DNA from: a virus
Taxonomy: Duplodnaviria > Heunggongvirae > Uroviricota > Caudoviricetes
IMG/VR virus record: IMGVR_UViG_2778261058_000012
Length of the DNA stretch: 4,279 nucleotides
Strand: one strand, 5' to 3'
Shown: piece by piece, positions 1-4,279 of the stretch
How the letters are laid out: each line of letters opens with the position of its first letter
Numbering within the stretch: the stretch's first letter is position 1
Program-made: the position numbers and the translations under genes
Notes under the pieces: generated by a model
Database searches by the model: none
Seen by the model: only the letters and a program-made list of their open reading frames with translations
What the model was told of the DNA's origin: nothing

Positions 1-55
1 TCCTGTTTACCTCTTTCTCAGGAAGTTTAGTCTCCAGGATTCCCGGGGCGGTTCA
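1..55 (-). mobile_element. Terminal inverted repeat and leader of an IS3-family insertion sequence (IS629/IS1203/IS3411-like), partial; the element body lies left of the window
   Basis: Minus-strand reading of 1..55 is TGAACCGCCCCGGGAATCCTGGAGACTAAACTTCCTGAGAAAGAGGTAAACAGGA: it begins with the TG dinucleotide typical of IS3-family ends and has a GAGG Shine-Dalgarno at the window edge where the orfA start codon would follow. Matches my recollection of the IS629 left end; not verified by search. Confidence 0.55.
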
Positions 56-76
56 CATCGCCTTTTGCTGCTTCAT
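56..76 (-). pseudogene. hokD: hokD/relF toxin gene remnant: first 7 codons (MKQQKAM) only, cut by the IS insertion
   Basis: Minus strand ATG AAG CAG CAA AAG GCG ATG (76..56) encodes MKQQKAM, the N-terminus of HokD as I recall it; the next triplet is the TGA that is also the first 3 nt of the IS inverted repeat. Position is immediately downstream of relE, as in the relB-relE-hokD operon. Confidence 0.5.
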
Positions 77-147
77 AGCCTGCTTCTCCTGTCAACGCAA
101 AGCAGAAGTGTCACCTTCGGTGCGAAACAGAGATGTCATGCTTTGGT

Positions 148-435
148 TCAGAGAATGCGTTTGACCGCCTCGCTATATACTTCCGAGCGTTCTCTTTTCC
201 CAACAGAAATCACGAAAACGACAACTTTCTCGTCTATAACCTGGTATACAAGGCGATAGCCTGAAGACCGGAGCTTAATCTTGTAACAATCAGGCATACC
301 ACGGAGCTTGTTTGCTTCAATCCGGGGTGACTCAAGTACTTCAACCAGCTTCTTTTTCAACTGTTCACGTACCGTCGAGCCCAGCTTTCGCCATTCCTTT
401 AGTGCCCGCTCGTCAAAATCCAGAAAATACGCCAT
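148..435 (-). CDS. relE: RelE mRNA interferase toxin (ribosome-dependent endoribonuclease), 95 aa
   Basis: Translation MAYFLDFDERALKEWRKLGSTV...VISVGKRERSEVYSEAVKRIL is essentially E. coli RelE; start overlaps the relB stop (TGATG), the usual TA operon arrangement. Confidence 0.95.
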   Translation of the reverse strand: MAYFLDFDERALKEWRKLGSTVREQLKKKLVEVLESPRIEANKLRGMPDCYKIKLRSSGYRLVYQVIDEKVVVFVISVGKRERSEVYSEAVKRIL

Positions 436-674
436 CAGAGTTCATCCAGCGTCACACGTACTGGCTTAGGATTACGAAGCCGTTCTTTCACTATCTCCAC
501 AAGTTCAGCATCTTCATCACTCAGGAGTGTCTGTTTGAACGGCAAGCGTTCATTGTCAGCGATATACTCGAGCATGAGACGAAGCGCTTCAGAAGGAGTT
601 ACACCCATTTTTTCAAGCGCGGCGTAAGAACGCGCTTTAAGTTCATCGTCAATACGCAGGTTAATGCTACCCAT
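435..674 (-). CDS. relB: RelB antitoxin, 79 aa
   Basis: Translation MGSINLRIDDELKARSYA...NPKPVRVTLDEL matches E. coli RelB; GAGGTG Shine-Dalgarno 7 nt upstream of the ATG; 1-nt overlap with relE. Confidence 0.95.
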   Translation of the reverse strand: MGSINLRIDDELKARSYAALEKMGVTPSEALRLMLEYIADNERLPFKQTLLSDEDAELVEIVKERLRNPKPVRVTLDEL

Positions 675-682
675 GTCTTACA

Positions 683-740
683 CCTCTTGTAATTACAAAT
701 GTCATTACAAGTATCGCACTACAACATGCTTAGGGCAAGT
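683..740 (-). promoter_or_regulatory. relBE promoter with relO operator (inverted hexad repeats overlapping -10 and transcription start)
   Basis: Minus strand reads TTGCCC (-35, plus 734..739) - 17 nt - GATACT (-10, plus 710..715) - TTGTAATGACATTTGTAATTACAAGAGGTGTAAGAC-ATG; the TTGTAAT/ATTACAA inverted repeats are the RelB2-RelE binding sites known for this operon. Confidence 0.7.
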
Positions 741-992
741 CACGAAGGAAGTCAGAAAGTAGTCGTAAGAACGGTGATCACTGTCCGCTTTGTGCCAGGA
801 GCAGCCATTGCTAAGTCCATCCTGTATTGTGCAGGTCAGCTCGTTTTTAAAGAGTCCGGCCATCATCTTACTGGTACAGACACCATATACTTTGTGACGG
901 TCAGGCTACATATGCACAACTCAACTTATTCATCTATTTTTTGCTTTAGCATGTCAGTGTTGCTTTCTCGTCGGCGGGTGGCGGTGACCTGA
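699..992 (+). CDS. Hypothetical small ORF (97 aa) divergent from relB, at the position a ydfV-type prophage ORF would occupy; coding status uncertain
   Basis: Open frame from ATG 699, but the start lies inside the relO operator, there is no convincing Shine-Dalgarno, and the composition is not clearly protein-like. Kept only because it is the sole candidate in the relB-flxA gap. Confidence 0.2.
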   Translation: MSLQVSHYNMLRASHEGSQKVVVRTVITVRFVPGAAIAKSILYCAGQLVFKESGHHLTGTDTIYFVTVRLHMHNSTYSSIFCFSMSVLLSRRRVAVT

Positions 993-1155
993 CCTGTCGA
1001 TAAAGGAACGTAACACGTTTTATGCAACACCCGCATGCGGCAGAAAATTATTGCCGAACGTTTACCCCTGTCAACAAGCTTTACTTTCTGAGGCGCGCCA
1101 GCCCGCGAGGAAAACAATCTGAACATCAAACAATTAATGACACAAGAAATACGAT

Positions 1156-1182
1156 TAAAGATTTTTTTGTGCATGCCGATAG
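1156..1182 (+). promoter_or_regulatory. Sigma-28 (FliA) class 3 flagellar-type promoter for flxA
   Basis: TAAAGATT (1156..1163) - 11 nt - GCCGATAG (1175..1182) against the sigma-28 consensus TAAAGTTT-N11-GCCGATAA; followed by AGGAG Shine-Dalgarno (1195..1199) and ATG at 1206. Confidence 0.75.
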
Positions 1183-1205
1183 TGCTTTTTTAAAAGGAGA
1201 AATCT

Positions 1206-1538
1206 ATGTCTGTCACAATTCAGGGAAATACCTCAACCGTTATTTCAAACAACTCCGCCCCGGAAGGAACATCAGAAATAGCCAAAATCACAAGACAAAT
1301 TCAGGTGCTGACTGAAAAGCTTGGGAAAATCTCATCGGAAGAGGGGATGACGACACAGCAGAAAAAAGAAATGGCTGCATTGGTACAGAAGCAAATTGAA
1401 AGCCTCTGGGCTCAACTGGAGCAGTTGTTAAGGCAGCAGGCAGAGAAAAAGAATGAAGACGCGACAGTTCAGCCTGATAAAAAAGAAGAGAAAAAAGACG
1501 ATACAAATACCGCTGGCACCATTGATATTTACGTCTAA
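1206..1538 (+). CDS. flxA: FlxA, FliA-regulated prophage protein, 110 aa, function unknown
   Basis: Translation MSVTIQGNTSTVISNNSAPEGTSEIAKITRQIQVLTEKLGK...TIDIYV matches E. coli FlxA as I recall it; strong Shine-Dalgarno; dedicated sigma-28 promoter upstream and terminator downstream. Confidence 0.9.
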   Translation: MSVTIQGNTSTVISNNSAPEGTSEIAKITRQIQVLTEKLGKISSEEGMTTQQKKEMAALVQKQIESLWAQLEQLLRQQAEKKNEDATVQPDKKEEKKDDTNTAGTIDIYV

Positions 1539-1552
1539 GTGACAGCCGTATT

Positions 1553-1576
1553 GTGGCCCTCATCGGGCCACTTTTC
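1553..1576 (+). terminator. Rho-independent terminator of flxA
   Basis: GTGGCCC (1553..1559) / loop TCATC / GGGCCAC (1565..1571) followed by TTTT (1572..1575): GC-rich 7-bp stem plus a T-tract 15 nt after the flxA stop. Confidence 0.7.
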
Positions 1577-1922
1577 GCCATCAGCCTTTTCTTTAAAGAC
1601 ATATTATCTTTGTATCATTTCTGATAGTTAACATTACAAGATATAAGTAATGGACGCACTCCCAATTAGTCTATTTAAATCGCCACGAGTTTAACTGACA
1701 ACCCATGATCAATTATGAATTGCAACTATTTCTGTAGTCACTTTTGTGGGGACAGTCCACAAAACTGCCAACTTCCGCTTCTTGCTCTTAGCGGACATTA
1801 GCATAGGCTATTTACCATAACGCCTCATTACGCGCACCGCCCAGACTGACTCAGCGCGTTTCTGGCATATCCCCGGTAAAACAAGTAACAAACCACCCGA
1901 AAATGAACACCAGAAACGCGAC

Positions 1923-2150
1923 TTAAGAATCTACCCTATGAATGGATATGCACTCAACCGAATCGATCTTGGTTTCAATCTTTTTTATCGGGATCAGGCT
2001 TCTTTTTAGGTAACTTCGGGGGCTTAACTTGCTGATGACTTTGCGTTCGGCGCGTAAGCCAGGGATGGTCAGCTTTAGGTTTAACATAGTATTTTGAGCG
2101 TAAATCAATACGGGCATTATCCACTCGTTCATGGACACTCTTTTCATCAT
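1923..2150 (-). CDS. Hypothetical 75-aa ORF, start overlapping the stop of the O-like gene (ATGA); possibly a remnant of the next replication gene
   Basis: Minus-strand ATGATGA at 2150..2144 gives the stop of the upstream gene and the start of this ORF in one 4-nt overlap. No recognisable family; followed by ORF-free DNA. Confidence 0.25.
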   Translation of the reverse strand: MMKRVSMNEWIMPVLIYAQNTMLNLKLTIPGLRAERKVISKLSPRSYLKRSLIPIKKIETKIDSVECISIHRVDS

Positions 2151-2875
2151 CCAGTGGTAGGCTCTTTTGGTCGCATGATCTCGCCATCATCACTGGCTGC
2201 CTGTTCGTAGAGACCCACGATCCGCCCCCAGATCCACTGCGCACACGCCAAATCCTCCCTGCTACCCCACTGGCGTTTTTTCGCACTAAACACAACCGCG
2301 TCGGAGTTCCGGGTTAAAAAATCCTGTTCAGTCGTCTGCGGGTCCGGTTGCGAAGCTTCCGGACGAAAAGTGTTTTTATTCTCTGTAGTAATCTCTGTTG
2401 TATTCTCTGTAAGATCATCAGGCCATTTTGACCCGATGACATTGGGTCGTTTTGAACCAATGGAGCGTTTCATTTTGACCTCTTCCATCGTGTCATTTTG
2501 ACCTGATGGAGCGGCGCATTTTGAACCGATGGATTCGCTCAATTTGCCACCATCTAAAAGCTCGCTCCCATAGTTGATCGTGTAGAAATTGGTCATATCG
2601 CGCTTTGATTTATTGAGCTTTTCACAACGCAAAAGCCCCAGCGTTTTCAGACTTGCAAACGCGCGCTTTAACGTTGACTCTGACCAGAATGGGAACTGTT
2701 CCAGCCATTGTTCCGTTGTGTTATAAATCCAGCGAACACCATCACATTCCATGCCGGAGTTGGTATCTCTCAACCAGTAGTGCAGTTGTTGCAAAACAAT
2801 GGCTTCGTTTAAGCCAATTTTCATTGCCAGCTGCGTGTTTATAACCAGTGGGCGTTCAGCAAAAAGAAGGCTCAT
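2147..2875 (-). CDS. Phage replication initiator, functional analogue of lambda O (iteron-binding origin protein); start assigned to ATG at 2875, alternatives TTG 2929 or ATG 2824
   Basis: Third gene of the dicC-led minus-strand operon, the position of lambda O. The coding sequence contains five direct repeats that translate to repeated IGSK-containing peptides (SESIGSK..RSIGSK..NVIGSK), followed by an AT-rich repeat block, the hallmark of an origin embedded in an O-type gene. The ORF-track start at 2929 is TTG and overlaps the upstream gene by 74 nt; ATG 2875 overlaps by 20 nt. Confidence 0.65.
   Translation of the reverse strand: MSLLFAERPLVINTQLAMKIGLNEAIVLQQLHYWLRDTNSGMECDGVRWIYNTTEQWLEQFPFWSESTLKRAFASLKTLGLLRCEKLNKSKRDMTNFYTINYGSELLDGGKLSESIGSKCAAPSGQNDTMEEVKMKRSIGSKRPNVIGSKWPDDLTENTTEITTENKNTFRPEASQPDPQTTEQDFLTRNSDAVVFSAKKRQWGSREDLACAQWIWGRIVGLYEQAASDDGEIMRPKEPTTG
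2378..2412. repeat. AT-rich block with three tandem 12-bp repeats (TCTCTGT-NGTA-N) flanking the iterons; candidate DNA-unwinding element
   Basis: TCTCTGT at 2380, 2392 and 2404, within TGTTTTTATTCTCTGTAGTAATCTCTGTTGTATTCTCTGTAAGA; encodes the repetitive peptide TENTTEITTENKNT. Iterons followed by an AT-rich tract is the same order as in lambda ori. Confidence 0.45.
2423..2555. repeat. Iteron array (candidate prophage replication origin) inside the O-like gene
   Basis: Direct repeats with core CATTTTGA(C/A)C starting at 2424, 2448, 2471, 2494 and 2517 (period 23-24 bp, about two helical turns), plus a degenerate sixth copy AATTTGCCACCATC at 2541..2554. The fuller consensus CATTTTGA(C/A)C(C/T)GATGG is met by the first, fourth and fifth copies only. 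Confidence 0.65.
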
Positions 2876-3377
2876 AATTCCATCCAGCTTTTTGTTGGTA
2901 TTGCTGTCGATACGCAAGTTTGAAAGCAATTGCTTTTTCTATAAGTTCGTCAGTTTCACGATCCACTACGGCAGGATCAGCAAAAAGCAGTCCGGACTCC
3001 ACCACATCGCCATATTCTTTGTTTAACCCGGCGATCATGCACGTGATGCTTTTTCCGTCAGTAATTTCACGATACAACCTGAAATCATTAATCCGGATAG
3101 CCTCCATAATTGCAGGCACTAGCGCCGTGAACTTTTCACGCTTATCCCTGGTGTCGATAGCCTTCCAGCGTTCAAATATCTTCACTCGATTAACGCCAAG
3201 CGCTCGCTGATCAATCGCGCCACCTTCATATGTGACACGCTGAACATCGATGTTCGGGCGCTCTTTCAAAGCCCAGAATGCTTCAGTGATTAATATCGTC
3301 GCCTGCTCCTGTGTCATTCCTGGTCGACATATCCAGGCATCCAGAGCCTCACGAGCCTGTTCAGGAGTGATTTTCAT
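2856..3377 (-). CDS. YdaT-family protein (CII-position regulator, toxic on overexpression in Rac), 173 aa
   Basis: Second gene of the operon, overlapping the dicC 3' end by 17 nt. Begins MKI and has an internal KREKFTALVPAIMEAI segment resembling the REK..LIPAIL region I recall from Rac YdaT; the family assignment rests on recalled similarity and synteny (cro-like, then ydaT-like, then replication gene). Confidence 0.5.
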   Translation of the reverse strand: MKITPEQAREALDAWICRPGMTQEQATILITEAFWALKERPNIDVQRVTYEGGAIDQRALGVNRVKIFERWKAIDTRDKREKFTALVPAIMEAIRINDFRLYREITDGKSITCMIAGLNKEYGDVVESGLLFADPAVVDRETDELIEKAIAFKLAYRQQYQQKAGWNYEPSFC

Positions 3378-3591
3378 TGTTCAACCGCCCCGCCCGCTTC
3401 GTCTTACGATATTCATCATAAACTTTGGGATCATACTGAAGCTCCCCGCCAGATGCCTCCTGTAGACGCATCGCGCGACCTTCGGGAACTAAATCCCCTT
3501 TCCAGCTATAAAGCGAAGCCAAACGAATACCTGCTGCTTGTGCAAGTTTTGTTTTTGAACCGAAATACAAAAGAGCGTCAGTTTTAAGCAT
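3361..3591 (-). CDS. dicC: DicC, Cro-like transcriptional regulator of the prophage immunity region, 76 aa
   Basis: Translation MLKTDALLYFGSKTKLAQAAGIRLASLYSWKGDLVPEGRAMRLQEASGGELQYDPKVYDEYRKTKRAGRLNNENHS matches E. coli DicC as I recall it; AAGGTG Shine-Dalgarno; divergent from dicA. Confidence 0.9.
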   Translation of the reverse strand: MLKTDALLYFGSKTKLAQAAGIRLASLYSWKGDLVPEGRAMRLQEASGGELQYDPKVYDEYRKTKRAGRLNNENHS

Positions 3592-3674
3592 TTAAAACAC
3601 CTTTATTGTTAGTCATAACTAACAAGATAGATGTTAACAAAAACATAGTCAATACGATTTAGCATTAGCTAACT
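3592..3674. promoter_or_regulatory. Divergent dicC/dicA promoter-operator region
   Basis: 83-bp AT-rich intergenic region with a 20-bp palindrome TTGTTAGT-CATA-ACTAACAA (3606..3625) and a second partial palindrome ATGTT-AACAAAA-ACAT (3631..3646), the type of operator that DicA and DicC would be expected to bind. Confidence 0.6.
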
Positions 3675-4082
3675 ATGGAAACAAAAAATTTAACTATCGG
3701 CGAACGCATCAGGTATCGTCGGAAAAACCTCAAACACACCCAAAGGTCTCTTGCTAAAGCCCTGAAAATCTCCCATGTGTCTGTATCACAATGGGAACGG
3801 GGTGATAGTGAACCTACAGGGAAGAACCTTTTTGCCCTCAGCAAAGTATTGCAATGCTCACCAACATGGATTCTATTTGGCGATGAAGACAAGCAACCAA
3901 CACCACCTGTTGAGAAGCCAGTTGCCTTATCCCCCAAAGAACTAGAGCTCCTTGAGCTGTTTAATGCACTGCCAGAATCAGAACAGGATACCCAGCTCGC
4001 CGAAATGCGAGCTCGAGTAAAAAACTTCAATAAACTCTTTGAAGAATTACTAAAAGCCCGTCAGCGGACAAATAAAAGATAA
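3675..4082 (+). CDS. dicA: DicA, cI/C2-like HTH repressor of the prophage (represses the dicB cell-division-inhibitor operon), 135 aa
   Basis: Translation METKNLTIGERIRYRRKNLKHTQRSLAKALKISHVSVSQWERGDSEPTGKNLFALSKVLQCSPTWILFGDEDK... matches E. coli DicA as I recall it; N-terminal XRE-type HTH. Confidence 0.95.
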   Translation: METKNLTIGERIRYRRKNLKHTQRSLAKALKISHVSVSQWERGDSEPTGKNLFALSKVLQCSPTWILFGDEDKQPTPPVEKPVALSPKELELLELFNALPESEQDTQLAEMRARVKNFNKLFEELLKARQRTNKR

Positions 4083-4116
4083 CATCATCAATGAGTTATC
4101 TTTTACCACATCAATT

Positions 4117-4176
4117 ATGTTAGCTATAGCATACAAAATCACTTGACCGATATGTTAGTCATGGCTAATCTTGTTT
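4117..4176 (+). promoter_or_regulatory. Candidate repressor-controlled promoter for the operon downstream of dicA (dicB-operon promoter position)
   Basis: TTGACC (4143..4148) - 17 nt - TAATCT (4166..4171); the spacer/-10 carries the near-palindrome TTAGTCATGGCTAA (4155..4168), closely related to the 3609..3622 operator, and a second site TGTTAGCTATAGCATACA lies at 4118..4135. Confidence 0.45.
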
Positions 4177-4248
4177 GCATCAACACACCGCACGGTGTTC
4201 TCAGCAAACAGTTCCGCTACCCCAGCGTTAAGGGGAAATGAGGTCAGC

Positions 4249-4279
4249 ATGGATACTATCGATCTTGGCAACAACGAAT
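4249..4279 (+). CDS. ydfA: 5' end of the first gene after dicA (small YdfA-like prophage protein), partial; continues beyond the window
   Basis: GAGGT Shine-Dalgarno (4239..4243) then ATG at 4249, reading MDTIDLGNNE...; position and N-terminus are consistent with my recollection of ydfA following dicA in Qin, but only 10 codons are visible. Confidence 0.4.
   Translation, partial: MDTIDLGNNE

What the first reader, a model, noticed from the sequence alone, without database searches (positions are those of the whole stretch)
1577..2150. ORF-poor stretch beyond the O-like gene suggests a deleted helicase-loader region
In lambdoid replication modules the initiator is followed by a P- or DnaC-like helicase loader. 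Here the O-like gene is followed only by an ATGA-coupled 75-aa ORF of no recognisable family, then roughly 350 bp without any ORF before the convergent flxA terminator. The ATGA coupling suggests the 75-aa ORF is the start of a formerly longer gene, so the module looks decayed.
Basis: inference. Interest (0 to 1): 0.4.

Follow-up and report, generated by a model that had tools for sequence, protein, structure and literature searches.

The report
Qin prophage deletion scar, IS remnant
The "empty" stretch after the phage replication gene is the leftover tail of an insertion sequence joined by a deletion to a truncated replication-initiator gene in the defective E. coli prophage Qin. No helicase-loader gene was lost, because working phages with this initiator never carry one, so this is ordinary prophage decay.

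Summary
The window is a whole contig of the E. coli cryptic prophage Qin (relE-relB-ydfV-flxA ... dicC-dicA).

Positions 1770-2164 are the last 395 bp of an ISEsa1 insertion sequence (IS1202-like, ISNCY family). The true reading frame there (1975-2160, minus strand) encodes the last 61 residues of the transposase; its last 49 codons are K-12 "ydfW".

At 2150-2164 a deletion joins this remnant to codon 239 of a 321-codon O-like initiator gene. The deletion is 1.9 kb relative to the closest Qin variants and 3.85 kb relative to phage PhiR42_1. The "ATGA coupling" lies entirely in IS-derived DNA, three codons past the junction, so it is a by-product.

The deletion removed the initiator's C-terminal 82 residues, a DUF977 (Ren-like) gene and most of the IS. 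It removed no helicase loader. Plaque-forming or deposited complete phages with the same initiator (PhiR42_1, HannyBb, mEp460_ev081) have O followed directly by DUF977, with no P/DnaC gene. This "O-only" module type is already described.

The junction occurs in two draft assemblies and in none of 5,426 complete genomes. It shares its IS-side breakpoint with K-12's ydfW/ydfX junction.

The parts
1206..1538 (+). flxA (110 aa), convergent with the replication operon
   Evidence: Pfam FlxA, E = 2e-14. Annotated flxA in NZ_CP128590 and K-12.
1553..1575 (+). flxA terminator-like hairpin (GUGGCCC-UCAUC-GGGCCAC followed by UUUU)
   Evidence: The 50-nt stretch 1536-1585 folds at -17.3 kcal/mol, z = -2.49. 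It is not called by the strict scan because it has only 4 U.
1576..1769 (.). Non-coding spacer of about 194 bp between the flxA hairpin and the IS end. It is conserved in Qin and carries no recognisable gene remnant.
   Evidence: Window 1540-2000 is 100% identical to K-12, and window 1400-1900 is 100% identical to PhiR42_1. PhiR42_1 is the only one of 50,697 phage records that matches this spacer. No Pfam or PHROG hits for its translated fragments. No Rfam hit. The 2 promoter-like sites are no more than chance (expected 1.0 +/- 0.9).
1770..2164 (-). 3'-terminal 395 bp of an ISEsa1 element (IS1202-like, ISNCY family): the non-coding end at 1770-1974 plus the last 61 codons of the transposase gene
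   Evidence: 98.7% identity to positions 1-397 of a 1596-bp intact ISEsa1 in a Klebsiella plasmid (L006 3001-4596). Similarity begins at window 1770 in several unrelated plasmid contexts.
1975..2160 (-). Transposase C-terminal remnant in its true frame (residues 386-446 of 446). K-12 'ydfW' is its last 49 codons (about 1975-2124).
   Evidence: tblastn with the intact 446-aa transposase gives 61/62 identical residues, E = 2e-35, ending at the native stop. K-12 ydfW coordinates map to this frame. Gene callers of both source assemblies called this frame (71 and 69 aa), not the 75-aa ORF.
1923..2150 (-).
   Evidence: No family hit. It lies in a different frame from the transposase. Strain VG35A2 differs from the window at position 1982, inside this ORF, where its sequence reads a stop in this frame.
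2150..2164 (.). Deletion junction. TCCAGTGGTAGGCTC is shared between the IS side (TCCAGTGGTATAGGCTC) and the O-gene side (TCCAGTTAGGCTC).
   Evidence: Window 46-2159 matches L001 6001-8115 and window 2150-4279 matches L001 10007-12134. The sequences were compared directly. The contiguous junction is absent from 5,426 complete E. coli genomes and present in 2 draft assemblies.
2147..2875 (-). Truncated O-like replication initiator: native residues 1-239 of 321, then T-T-G-stop read from IS DNA (242 aa)
   Evidence: PHROG 391 'replication initiation O-like': E = 5e-45 covering profile positions 11-211 of 298, against E = 1e-91 covering 11-298 for the full-length protein. Full-length gene in L001 is at 9765-10730. 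C-termini compared.
2416..2531 (.). Five 23-24-bp-spaced iterons (CATC..CATTTTGA(A/C)C.GATG) inside the initiator gene, forming a lambda-type origin that is retained
   Evidence: the repeat finder families D1 and D2. They encode the repeated (S/V)IGSK linker, residues about 115-153.
2370..2412 (.). A+T-rich stretch with a 24-bp-spaced repeat (T(T/G)TATTCTCTGTA) next to the iterons, in the position of lambda's A+T-rich unwinding region
   Evidence: the repeat finder D3 and D4; sequence. The functional assignment is inferred by analogy with ori-lambda.
2856..3377 (-). YdaT-like / CII-like gene upstream of the initiator. It is intact here and truncated in K-12, where the remnant is annotated ydfX.
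   Evidence: Pfam YdaT_toxin, E = 4.5e-5. PHROG 163 'CII-like', E = 5.5e-40. K-12 comparison.
3361..3591 (-). dicC (Cro-like), the first gene of the rightward operon
   Evidence: Pfam P22_Cro, E = 1.7e-11. Annotated as dicC.
3675..4082 (+). dicA (CI-like repressor)
   Evidence: Pfam HTH_3, E = 1.3e-16. Annotated as dicA.

Best explanation
The stretch 1577-2150 is not a decayed helicase-loader region. It has three parts:
- about 194 bp of Qin spacer next to the flxA terminator;
- the last 395 bp of an ISEsa1 insertion sequence that sat between the phage early region and the flxA-relBE block, as it still does in phage PhiR42_1;
- a deletion junction at 2150-2164.

A single illegitimate recombination event occurred between two short similar sequences: TCCAGTGGTATAGGCTC in the transposase gene and TCCAGTTAGGCTC at codons 238-241 of the initiator gene. 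It removed about 1.2 kb of the IS, the DUF977/Ren-like gene and the last 82 codons of the initiator. If the parent was PhiR42_1-like, it also removed the methyltransferase segment.

The initiator frame then runs 3 codons into IS DNA and stops. By chance this stop overlaps an ATG that begins a 75-codon open frame, out of register with the transposase.

The result is a replication-dead module. The origin iterons and the N-terminal DNA-binding half of the initiator survive. The C-terminal domain is gone; by analogy with lambda O, that domain should connect the initiator to the host helicase machinery. The module never had its own loader, because this initiator family works as an O-only module in live phages.

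Shown: the identities, coordinates, junction sequence, gene content of relatives and rarity.
Inferred: the microhomology mechanism, the order of events and the loss of function.
For: - Collinearity with NZ_CP128590, except for the missing 1,891 bp (L001 8116-10006), which hold the partial ISEsa1 transposase, the DUF977 pseudogene and the 3' end of the 321-aa initiator gene.
- Collinearity with phage PhiR42_1, except for 3.85 kb.
- IS identity and IS end at about 1770; transposase C-terminus 61/62 in another frame.
- Junction sequences.
- Same junction in two assemblies, one of them on a 117-kb contig.
- Intact relatives have O followed by DUF977 with no loader. SfII and mEp460_4F5 homologues are likewise not followed by a loader.
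- Literature: O-only modules occur in 34 of 314 lambdoid phages (PMC12315714). The 'ev' suffix of mEp460_ev081 marks isolates that were plaque-purified from viromes (PMC6969025).
- The PHROG profile match is cut at profile position 211 of 298.
- Iterons lie inside the gene.
- No DnaC/P signal in any frame.
Against: - The junction is not the product of a clean crossover inside the best homology block: one TA of the IS 'TATA' is missing. The event was therefore either imprecise or two-step.
- Which parent configuration it arose from (VG35A2-like or PhiR42_1-like) cannot be decided from the few SNPs.
- Loss of replication function is inferred, not measured.
- More distantly related modules (Rac, Stx phage 75/02) have a DnaC-like gene between an initiator and a DUF977 gene. 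A loader may therefore have been lost deep in the ancestry of the O-only type, but before the living phages that carry this gene.
Confidence: 0.9

Rival explanations
1. One reading: a P- or DnaC-like helicase-loader gene once followed the O-like gene. The ATGA-coupled 75-aa ORF is its surviving 5' end, and the ORF-free 350 bp is its degraded remainder.
For: Many lambdoid modules have an initiator followed by a loader. Among modules whose initiators share the same C-terminal tail, Rac (ydaU-ydaV), Gifsy-2 and Stx phage 75/02 have a DnaC-like gene immediately downstream. In Rac and 75/02 a DUF977/LygF gene follows two genes later.
Against: The DNA under the 75-aa ORF and down to 1770 is ISEsa1 at about 99% identity, and its real frame is the transposase. 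Phages with the identical O gene have no loader. O-only modules are a documented class. No DnaC, IstB or P hits were found in six frames.
Confidence: 0.03
2. The junction is an assembly artefact: a short-read assembler collapsed the region at the short repeat, and the real genome has the full IS, DUF977 gene and O gene.
For: The window is a short (4,279-bp) draft contig. The junction is absent from all 5,426 complete genomes.
Against: The identical truncated protein and flanks occur in a second assembly inside a 117-kb contig. The shared sequence is only 13-15 bp and imperfect, far below usual assembly k-mers. K-12, finished many times, has a junction at the same IS nucleotide, so deletions from this point are real.
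Confidence: 0.03
3. The 75-aa ORF is a genuine small gene, translationally coupled to the truncated initiator and newly created by the fusion.
For: The ATGA overlap is real, and the ORF is open for 75 codons in the window and in K-12 DNA.
Against: There are no homologues. It is out of frame within a transposase gene. Its length varies with a SNP at window 1982 in VG35A2. Gene callers preferred the transposase frame. The operon is under DicA repression and the fusion is confined to a rare lineage.
Confidence: 0.03

Closest known systems
Qin (Kim) cryptic prophage of E. coli K-12, ydfW(intK)-ydfX-dicC region
   Same: Same gene order (relE-relB-ydfV-flxA-IS remnant ... dicC-dicA-ydfA). Identity is 99.8-99.9% in the shared parts. 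The IS remnant is the same and the IS-side deletion breakpoint is the same to the nucleotide (...CCAGTGGTAG).
   Different: K-12 has lost a further 938 bp or so: all of the O-like gene and the 3' part of the YdaT-like gene, whose remnant is annotated ydfX. The window keeps the intact YdaT-like gene, the origin iterons and 239 codons of the initiator.
Qin-like functional phages PhiR42_1 (PV340562), HannyBb (PP925841), mEp460_ev081 (LR597641)
   Same: The DicA/DicC/YdaT-like/O-like genes are the same at 98-100% identity. PhiR42_1 also has the ISEsa1-flxA-ydfV-relBE block.
   Different: They keep the full 321-aa initiator, the DUF977/Ren-like gene and the downstream early genes. The window lacks these.
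O-only lambdoid replication modules (phage LLS and 34 of 314 lambdoid phages; Genome Res 2025, PMC12315714)
   Same: A single O homologue, with no P, DnaC or helicase gene. The named relative mEp460_4F5 has a homologue 68% identical to this initiator.
   Different: Here the single gene is itself truncated, so the module is non-functional.
Lambda O/P replication module with ori inside O
   Same: A two-domain initiator, with iterons and an A+T-rich stretch inside the gene between the two domains.
   Different: There is no P gene in any relative. Pfam Phage_rep_O does not match. The C-terminus carries a DnaT-like tail that lambda O is not known to have.
ISEsa1 (IS1202-like group, ISNCY family)
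   Same: 98.7% nucleotide identity over 395 bp. The element end is the same. The last 61 transposase residues match 61/62.
   Different: Only the terminal quarter of the 1,596-bp element remains, so it cannot transpose.

Membership tests
ISEsa1 / IS1202-like (ISNCY) insertion sequence | High nucleotide identity to reference copies, ending at the same terminal nucleotide in unrelated contexts | tested here: met
   98.7% over window 1770-2164 against L006. Similarity starts at 1770 (+/- 3 bp) in Klebsiella and E. coli plasmids with unrelated flanks.
ISEsa1 / IS1202-like (ISNCY) insertion sequence | Encodes the ISNCY-type transposase | tested here: inconclusive
   Only residues 386-446 of 446 remain, and they match 61/62. 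The intact protein hits NCBIfam transpos_ISNCY_2 at E = 1e-139. What is present is therefore a remnant, not an element.
ISEsa1 / IS1202-like (ISNCY) insertion sequence | Both ends present (complete, mobile element) | tested here: not met
   395 of 1,596 bp are present. The other end and 385 codons were deleted.
Lambda-type O+P (initiator + helicase loader) module | Origin-binding initiator with iterons inside its gene | tested here: met
   PHROG 391 'O-like'. Five iterons at 2416-2531. Binding itself was not tested.
Lambda-type O+P (initiator + helicase loader) module | P- or DnaC-like loader gene downstream of the initiator, either now or in intact relatives | tested here: not met
   None in the window in any frame. 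None in PhiR42_1 (whole genome), HannyBb, mEp460_ev081, SfII or mEp460_4F5.
O-only lambdoid replication module | Single O homologue as the only replication gene in viable phages | tested here: met
   Relatives. Literature. Plaque isolation.
O-only lambdoid replication module | Full-length initiator, including the C-terminal domain | tested here: not met
   The window protein stops at native residue 239 of 321. The PHROG 2357 C-terminal domain match falls from E = 2e-46 to 3e-7. The terminal IPPGFRG tail is absent.
Qin cryptic prophage | Synteny and near-identity with the K-12 Qin early region | tested here: met
DnaC/IstB or lambda P family (for the 75-aa ORF and 1577-1922) | Detectable profile similarity | tested here: not met
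   Pfam, PHROGs and NCBIfam give no hits for the ORF. The ten longest stop-to-stop fragments give no relevant hit at E <= 1.

The most novel reading that the evidence does not exclude
The missing loader is explained by the part of the initiator that this window has lost. O-only initiators of this family end in a peptide, ...[17 protein letters not shown], that is 14/21 identical to the extreme C-terminus of the host replication-restart protein DnaT. The same tail is found on phage initiators that are followed by DnaC-like genes (Rac YdaU, Gifsy-2, Stx 75/02). In the 3 loader-bearing modules I inspected, it was never next to a lambda-P-type loader.

The tail may be a portable docking peptide for a DnaC-type loader or the DnaB-DnaC complex. 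That would let O-only phages use the host DnaC directly. It would also hint that dnaT-dnaC and phage initiator-DnaC pairs are related.

Separately, the window allele may be the surviving intermediate of the two-step deletion that produced K-12's ydfW/ydfX junction.
Probability: 0.3. Interest if true: 0.6.

Novelty: already known. Interest (0 to 1): 0.17.

Why it matters
For the finding itself, it matters little. It is one more lineage-specific deletion in a well-known defective prophage, and it corrects three tempting mis-annotations:
- a "missing helicase loader";
- a "coupled" small ORF;
- the ydfW remnant read as phage rather than IS.

Two things are useful. First, this allele keeps the origin iterons, an intact YdaT-like gene and 239 initiator codons that K-12 lacks. 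It shares K-12's IS breakpoint, so it helps reconstruct how Qin decayed. Second, working through it highlights that the O-only initiators carry a DnaT-like C-terminal tail. That is a testable lead for a question the literature calls open: how these phages load the host helicase.

Tried and rejected
1. **Degraded DnaC/P in the ORF or spacer.** Pfam, PHROGs and NCBIfam on the 75-aa ORF, and Pfam and PHROGs on the ten longest six-frame fragments, found nothing relevant. The only marginal hit was PriCT_1 at E = 0.13 on a 35-aa fragment inside the IS non-coding end, which I treat as chance.
2. **RNA gene in the ORF-poor stretch.** Rfam at E <= 1 over the whole window gave no hits.
3. **Promoters or terminators in 1400-2300.** Two weak promoter-like sites, no more than the shuffles give. 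The flxA hairpin is not called by the strict rule.
4. **Empty site without the IS next to flxA.** None was found. All 1,147 genomes holding the spacer also hold the IS end, and PhiR42_1 is the only phage with it. I could not define target-site duplications, and I saw no convincing terminal inverted repeats by eye.
5. **An IS copy lacking one TA but otherwise continuous**, which would make both the window junction and the K-12 junction clean microhomology events. No full-length perfect match exists among 5,426 genomes.
6. **SNP-based choice of the parental configuration.** Too few informative sites.
7. **Function of DnaT's last 20 residues.** I read the two DnaT structure papers and neither addresses it. 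The DciA paper does not mention DnaT.
8. **Large protein-database searches and structure prediction.** I did not run them, because the DNA-level identities already settle the question.

Full report
**What the window is.** The 4,279-bp window is an entire draft contig (NLNZ01000118.1 of GCA_002229985.1, reversed). It covers the early region of the E. coli cryptic lambdoid prophage Qin.

| Coordinates | Strand | Gene |
|---|---|---|
| 148-435 | - | relE |
| 435-674 | - | relB |
| 699-992 | + | ydfV |
| 1206-1538 | + | flxA |
| 1577-2150 | | the stretch in question |
| 2147-2875 | - | O-like initiator |
| 2856-3377 | - | YdaT-like / CII-like gene |
| 3361-3591 | - | dicC (Cro-like) |
| 3675-4082 | + | dicA |
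| from 4249 | + | start of ydfA |

**The observation.**
- The O-like ORF stops at 2149-2147, and a 75-codon ORF starts at 2150-2148, which gives the ATGA overlap.
- That ORF has no family hit.
- 1577-1922 is essentially ORF-free.
- flxA ends in a G+C-rich hairpin followed by UUUU at 1553-1575.

**What the stretch is made of.** A search of plasmids with 1540-2160 gave two tiers of hits.
- Dozens of Klebsiella, Enterobacter and E. coli plasmids match only 1770-2159, at about 99% identity. The match is annotated "IS1202-like element ISEsa1 family transposase".
- A smaller group matches the whole query.

An intact copy in a Klebsiella plasmid, sitting next to a nickel-resistance operon, is 1,596 bp long and encodes a 446-aa transposase. 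Window 1770-2164 equals its terminal 397 bp at 98.7% identity.

tblastn with the intact transposase shows that 1975-2160 (minus strand) encodes its last 61 residues. The match is 61/62 identical and ends at the native stop codon. K-12's annotated "ydfW" (49 aa) is the tail of this frame.

- A single base difference at window 1982 in strain VG35A2 puts a stop into it.
- The gene callers of both source assemblies chose the transposase frame instead.

I conclude that the 75-aa ORF is not a gene. The remaining 1576-1769 is a conserved Qin spacer. PhiR42_1 is its only phage match, and it contains no recognisable coding or RNA signal.

**The junction.** Against the closest complete genome (NZ_CP128590, strain VG35A2), window 46-2159 and window 2150-4279 align at 99.5% and 99.8% identity. 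In that genome the two blocks are separated by 1,891 bp that the window lacks. The missing segment contains:
- the rest of the IS (a partial transposase);
- a DUF977 gene, which is a pseudogene there;
- the last 82 codons of a 321-codon initiator gene.

Against phage PhiR42_1 the gap is 3.85 kb and also includes a methyltransferase-containing segment.

The sequences at the junction are:

| Sequence | Reads |
|---|---|
| IS parent | ...CATCCAGTGGTATAGGCTCCGGG |
| Initiator parent | ...GCAGTCCAGTTAGGCTCTTTTGG |
| Window | ...CATCCAGTGGTAGGCTCTTTTGG |

This looks like illegitimate recombination at a short imperfect repeat (TCCAGT..TAGGCTC), with one TA lost.

The initiator therefore keeps native residues 1-239, reads T-T-G from IS DNA, and stops. 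Both the stop codon and the ATG of the 75-aa ORF lie in IS-derived sequence that is present in every ISEsa1 copy (the ...CTG GAT GAT GAA AAG... codons of the transposase). The "coupling" is therefore accidental.

**Is the junction real, and how common is it?**
- No complete E. coli genome (0 of 5,426) holds the junction contiguously.
- The exact 242-aa truncated protein is encoded in two NCBI draft assemblies. In one of them it sits inside a 117-kb contig with identical flanks.
- An assembly artefact is unlikely, because the shared motif is only 13-15 bp and imperfect.

**Was a helicase loader deleted?** No. tblastn of the full-length initiator against 50,697 phage records found three phages with 98-100% identical proteins: PhiR42_1, HannyBb and mEp460_ev081.
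- In each, the gene order is repressor / Cro(DicC) / YdaT-like / O-like (321 aa). After a 40-bp gap comes a DUF977 ("LygF", Ren-like) gene (Pfam and PHROG).
- The complete 76-gene annotation of PhiR42_1 has no P, DnaC, helicase or primase gene.
- The neighbouring ORFs I checked are not loaders.
- Homologues at 44-68% identity in SfII and mEp460_4F5 are likewise followed by a PerC-like activator rather than a loader.
- mEp460_ev081's "ev" suffix marks a plaque-purified virome isolate (PMC6969025). HannyBb is deposited as a phage with an E. coli host, source "bird poop".
- A 2025 study states that phage LLS, a relative of mEp460_4F5, has a replication module with only an O homologue. It reports that 34 of 314 Enterobacteriales lambdoid phages are of this type and that their replication "is not yet understood" (PMC12315714).

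One nuance remains. In Rac and Stx phage 75/02, a DnaC-like gene sits between an initiator and a DUF977 gene. A loader may therefore have been lost in the deep history of the O-only type, but before the living phages that carry this gene.

**What the truncated module retains and lacks.**
- Five iterons spaced 23-24 bp apart (2416-2531), plus an adjacent A+T-rich repeat (2370-2412), lie inside the initiator gene. They sit between its N-terminal DNA-binding half and its C-terminal domain. This is the layout of ori-lambda within gene O.
- The deletion cuts the C-terminal domain. The PHROG 391 match stops at profile position 211 of 298, and the PHROG 2357 match falls from E = 2e-46 to 3e-7.
- By analogy with lambda O, whose C-terminal domain contacts the loader, I infer that the protein can no longer start replication. 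This was not tested.

**Relation to K-12.** K-12's ydfW/ydfX junction reads ...CATCCAGTGGTAG|CCTCCATAATTG. The IS side ends at the same nucleotide as in the window and shows the same loss of one TA. The other side is window position 3098, inside the YdaT-like gene.
- A window-type parent would yield the K-12 junction by a second deletion of about 938 bp, between GGTAG|G at the window junction (about 2155-2160) and GGATAG|C at 3092-3098.
- An intact-IS parent would need an independent break at the identical nucleotide.
- No IS copy that lacks the TA but otherwise continues exists in 5,426 genomes.
- Among the 1,161 genomes that carry this IS segment, it continues in 797. About 360, mostly K-12 derivatives, end at this breakpoint. 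Strain S1 has a third deletion with a different endpoint.

I therefore favour, at roughly 60%, the view that the window allele is a surviving intermediate on the way to the K-12 state. The few SNPs neither support nor contradict this.

**A lead noticed on the way.** The full-length initiator ends [25 protein letters not shown]. E. coli DnaT ends [25 protein letters not shown]. That is 14 of 21 identical residues, both at the extreme C-terminus (phmmer E = 0.013-0.044 against PDB chains; NCBIfam DnaT E = 0.006). SfII and mEp460_4F5 homologues end ...QIPAGFRG.

A tblastn search with the 23-residue tail hit 46 records. Every annotated hit inspected was either a phage replication initiator or genuine DnaT. 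The modules I inspected fall into two groups:

| Module type | Examples |
|---|---|
| O-only | Qin-like trio, Tritos, Evi, SPN1S, a Klebsiella phage |
| Followed by a DnaC-like gene | Stx 75/02, Gifsy-2, Rac YdaU-YdaV |

None was followed by a lambda-P-type gene. DnaT is thought to recruit DnaB/DnaC, but how it does so is unknown (PMC13377028; PMC4132743). The tail may be a docking peptide for a DnaC-type loader. This is speculation from a small sample. The window itself has lost the tail.

**Verdict.** The feature is real and now fully explained: an IS remnant plus a deletion scar that truncates an O-only replication module in a cryptic prophage. As a discovery it is ordinary.

Noticed in passing
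L001 9765-9830 (minus strand; last 21 codons of the full-length O-like gene); absent from the window: The full-length initiator ends ...[21 protein letters not shown], 14/21 identical to the extreme C-terminus of E. coli DnaT. The same tail is on SfII, mEp460, Tritos, Evi, SPN1S, Gifsy-2, Stx 75/02 and Rac YdaU initiators. These modules are either O-only or followed by a DnaC-like gene, and none I inspected had a lambda-P type. It may be a host-loader docking peptide.
   Followed up: partly
window 2370-2531: Five iterons spaced 23-24 bp apart, plus an adjacent A+T-rich repeat, lie inside the O-like gene. They encode a repeated (S/V)IGSK linker. This is a lambda-style origin within the initiator gene, still intact in this defective prophage.
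   Followed up: partly
window 2150-2164 and 3092-3100; L012 (K-12) 2600-2620: K-12's ydfW/ydfX junction uses the same IS nucleotide as the window's junction and shows the same loss of one TA. This suggests that the window allele is an intermediate stage of the K-12 deletion.
   Followed up: partly
L007 (Enterobacter asburiae plasmid pEnt261) 2888-5826; also Salmonella, Enterobacter and E. coli IncF plasmids: The window's 621-bp flxA-end/spacer/ISEsa1-end stretch (1540-2160) is 99.7-100% identical in 14 Salmonella, Enterobacter and E. coli plasmids and 96.1% in a fifteenth. In pEnt261 it sits beside annotated relB and ydfV and an intact ISEsa1. A piece of a Qin-like phage has therefore been carried onto plasmids with the IS.
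   Followed up: partly
window about 980 (in ydfV, 699-992 plus strand): A 1-bp deletion relative to K-12, VG35A2 and PhiR42_1 changes the C-terminus of ydfV: the ORF is 97 aa here against 101 aa annotated elsewhere.
   Followed up: no
L016 (E. coli S1, NZ_CP010226) 1416-1838: A third, independent deletion joins the IS remnant to the YdaT-like gene at a different IS position (40 bp earlier). The IS-to-early-operon interval has therefore been deleted repeatedly in Qin.
   Followed up: partly
window 1734-1772: An imperfect 16-nt inverted repeat (GTAGTCACTTTTGTGG / CCACAAAACTGCCAAC) abuts the IS end at about 1770. It could be part of the IS target or terminus. I found no clear terminal inverted repeats or target duplication.
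   Followed up: no
L002 (PhiR42_1) 9399-10967: In PhiR42_1 the ISEsa1 copy is annotated as two ORFs (130 aa and 265 aa) rather than one 446-aa transposase. The IS therefore appears already inactivated inside that phage genome.
   Followed up: no
window 2856-2875: The O-like gene's ATG (2875) overlaps the end of the YdaT-like gene by 20 nt. The ORF listing extends the O-like ORF to a TTG at 2929, but all annotated relatives start at the ATG, giving 321 aa.
   Followed up: yes
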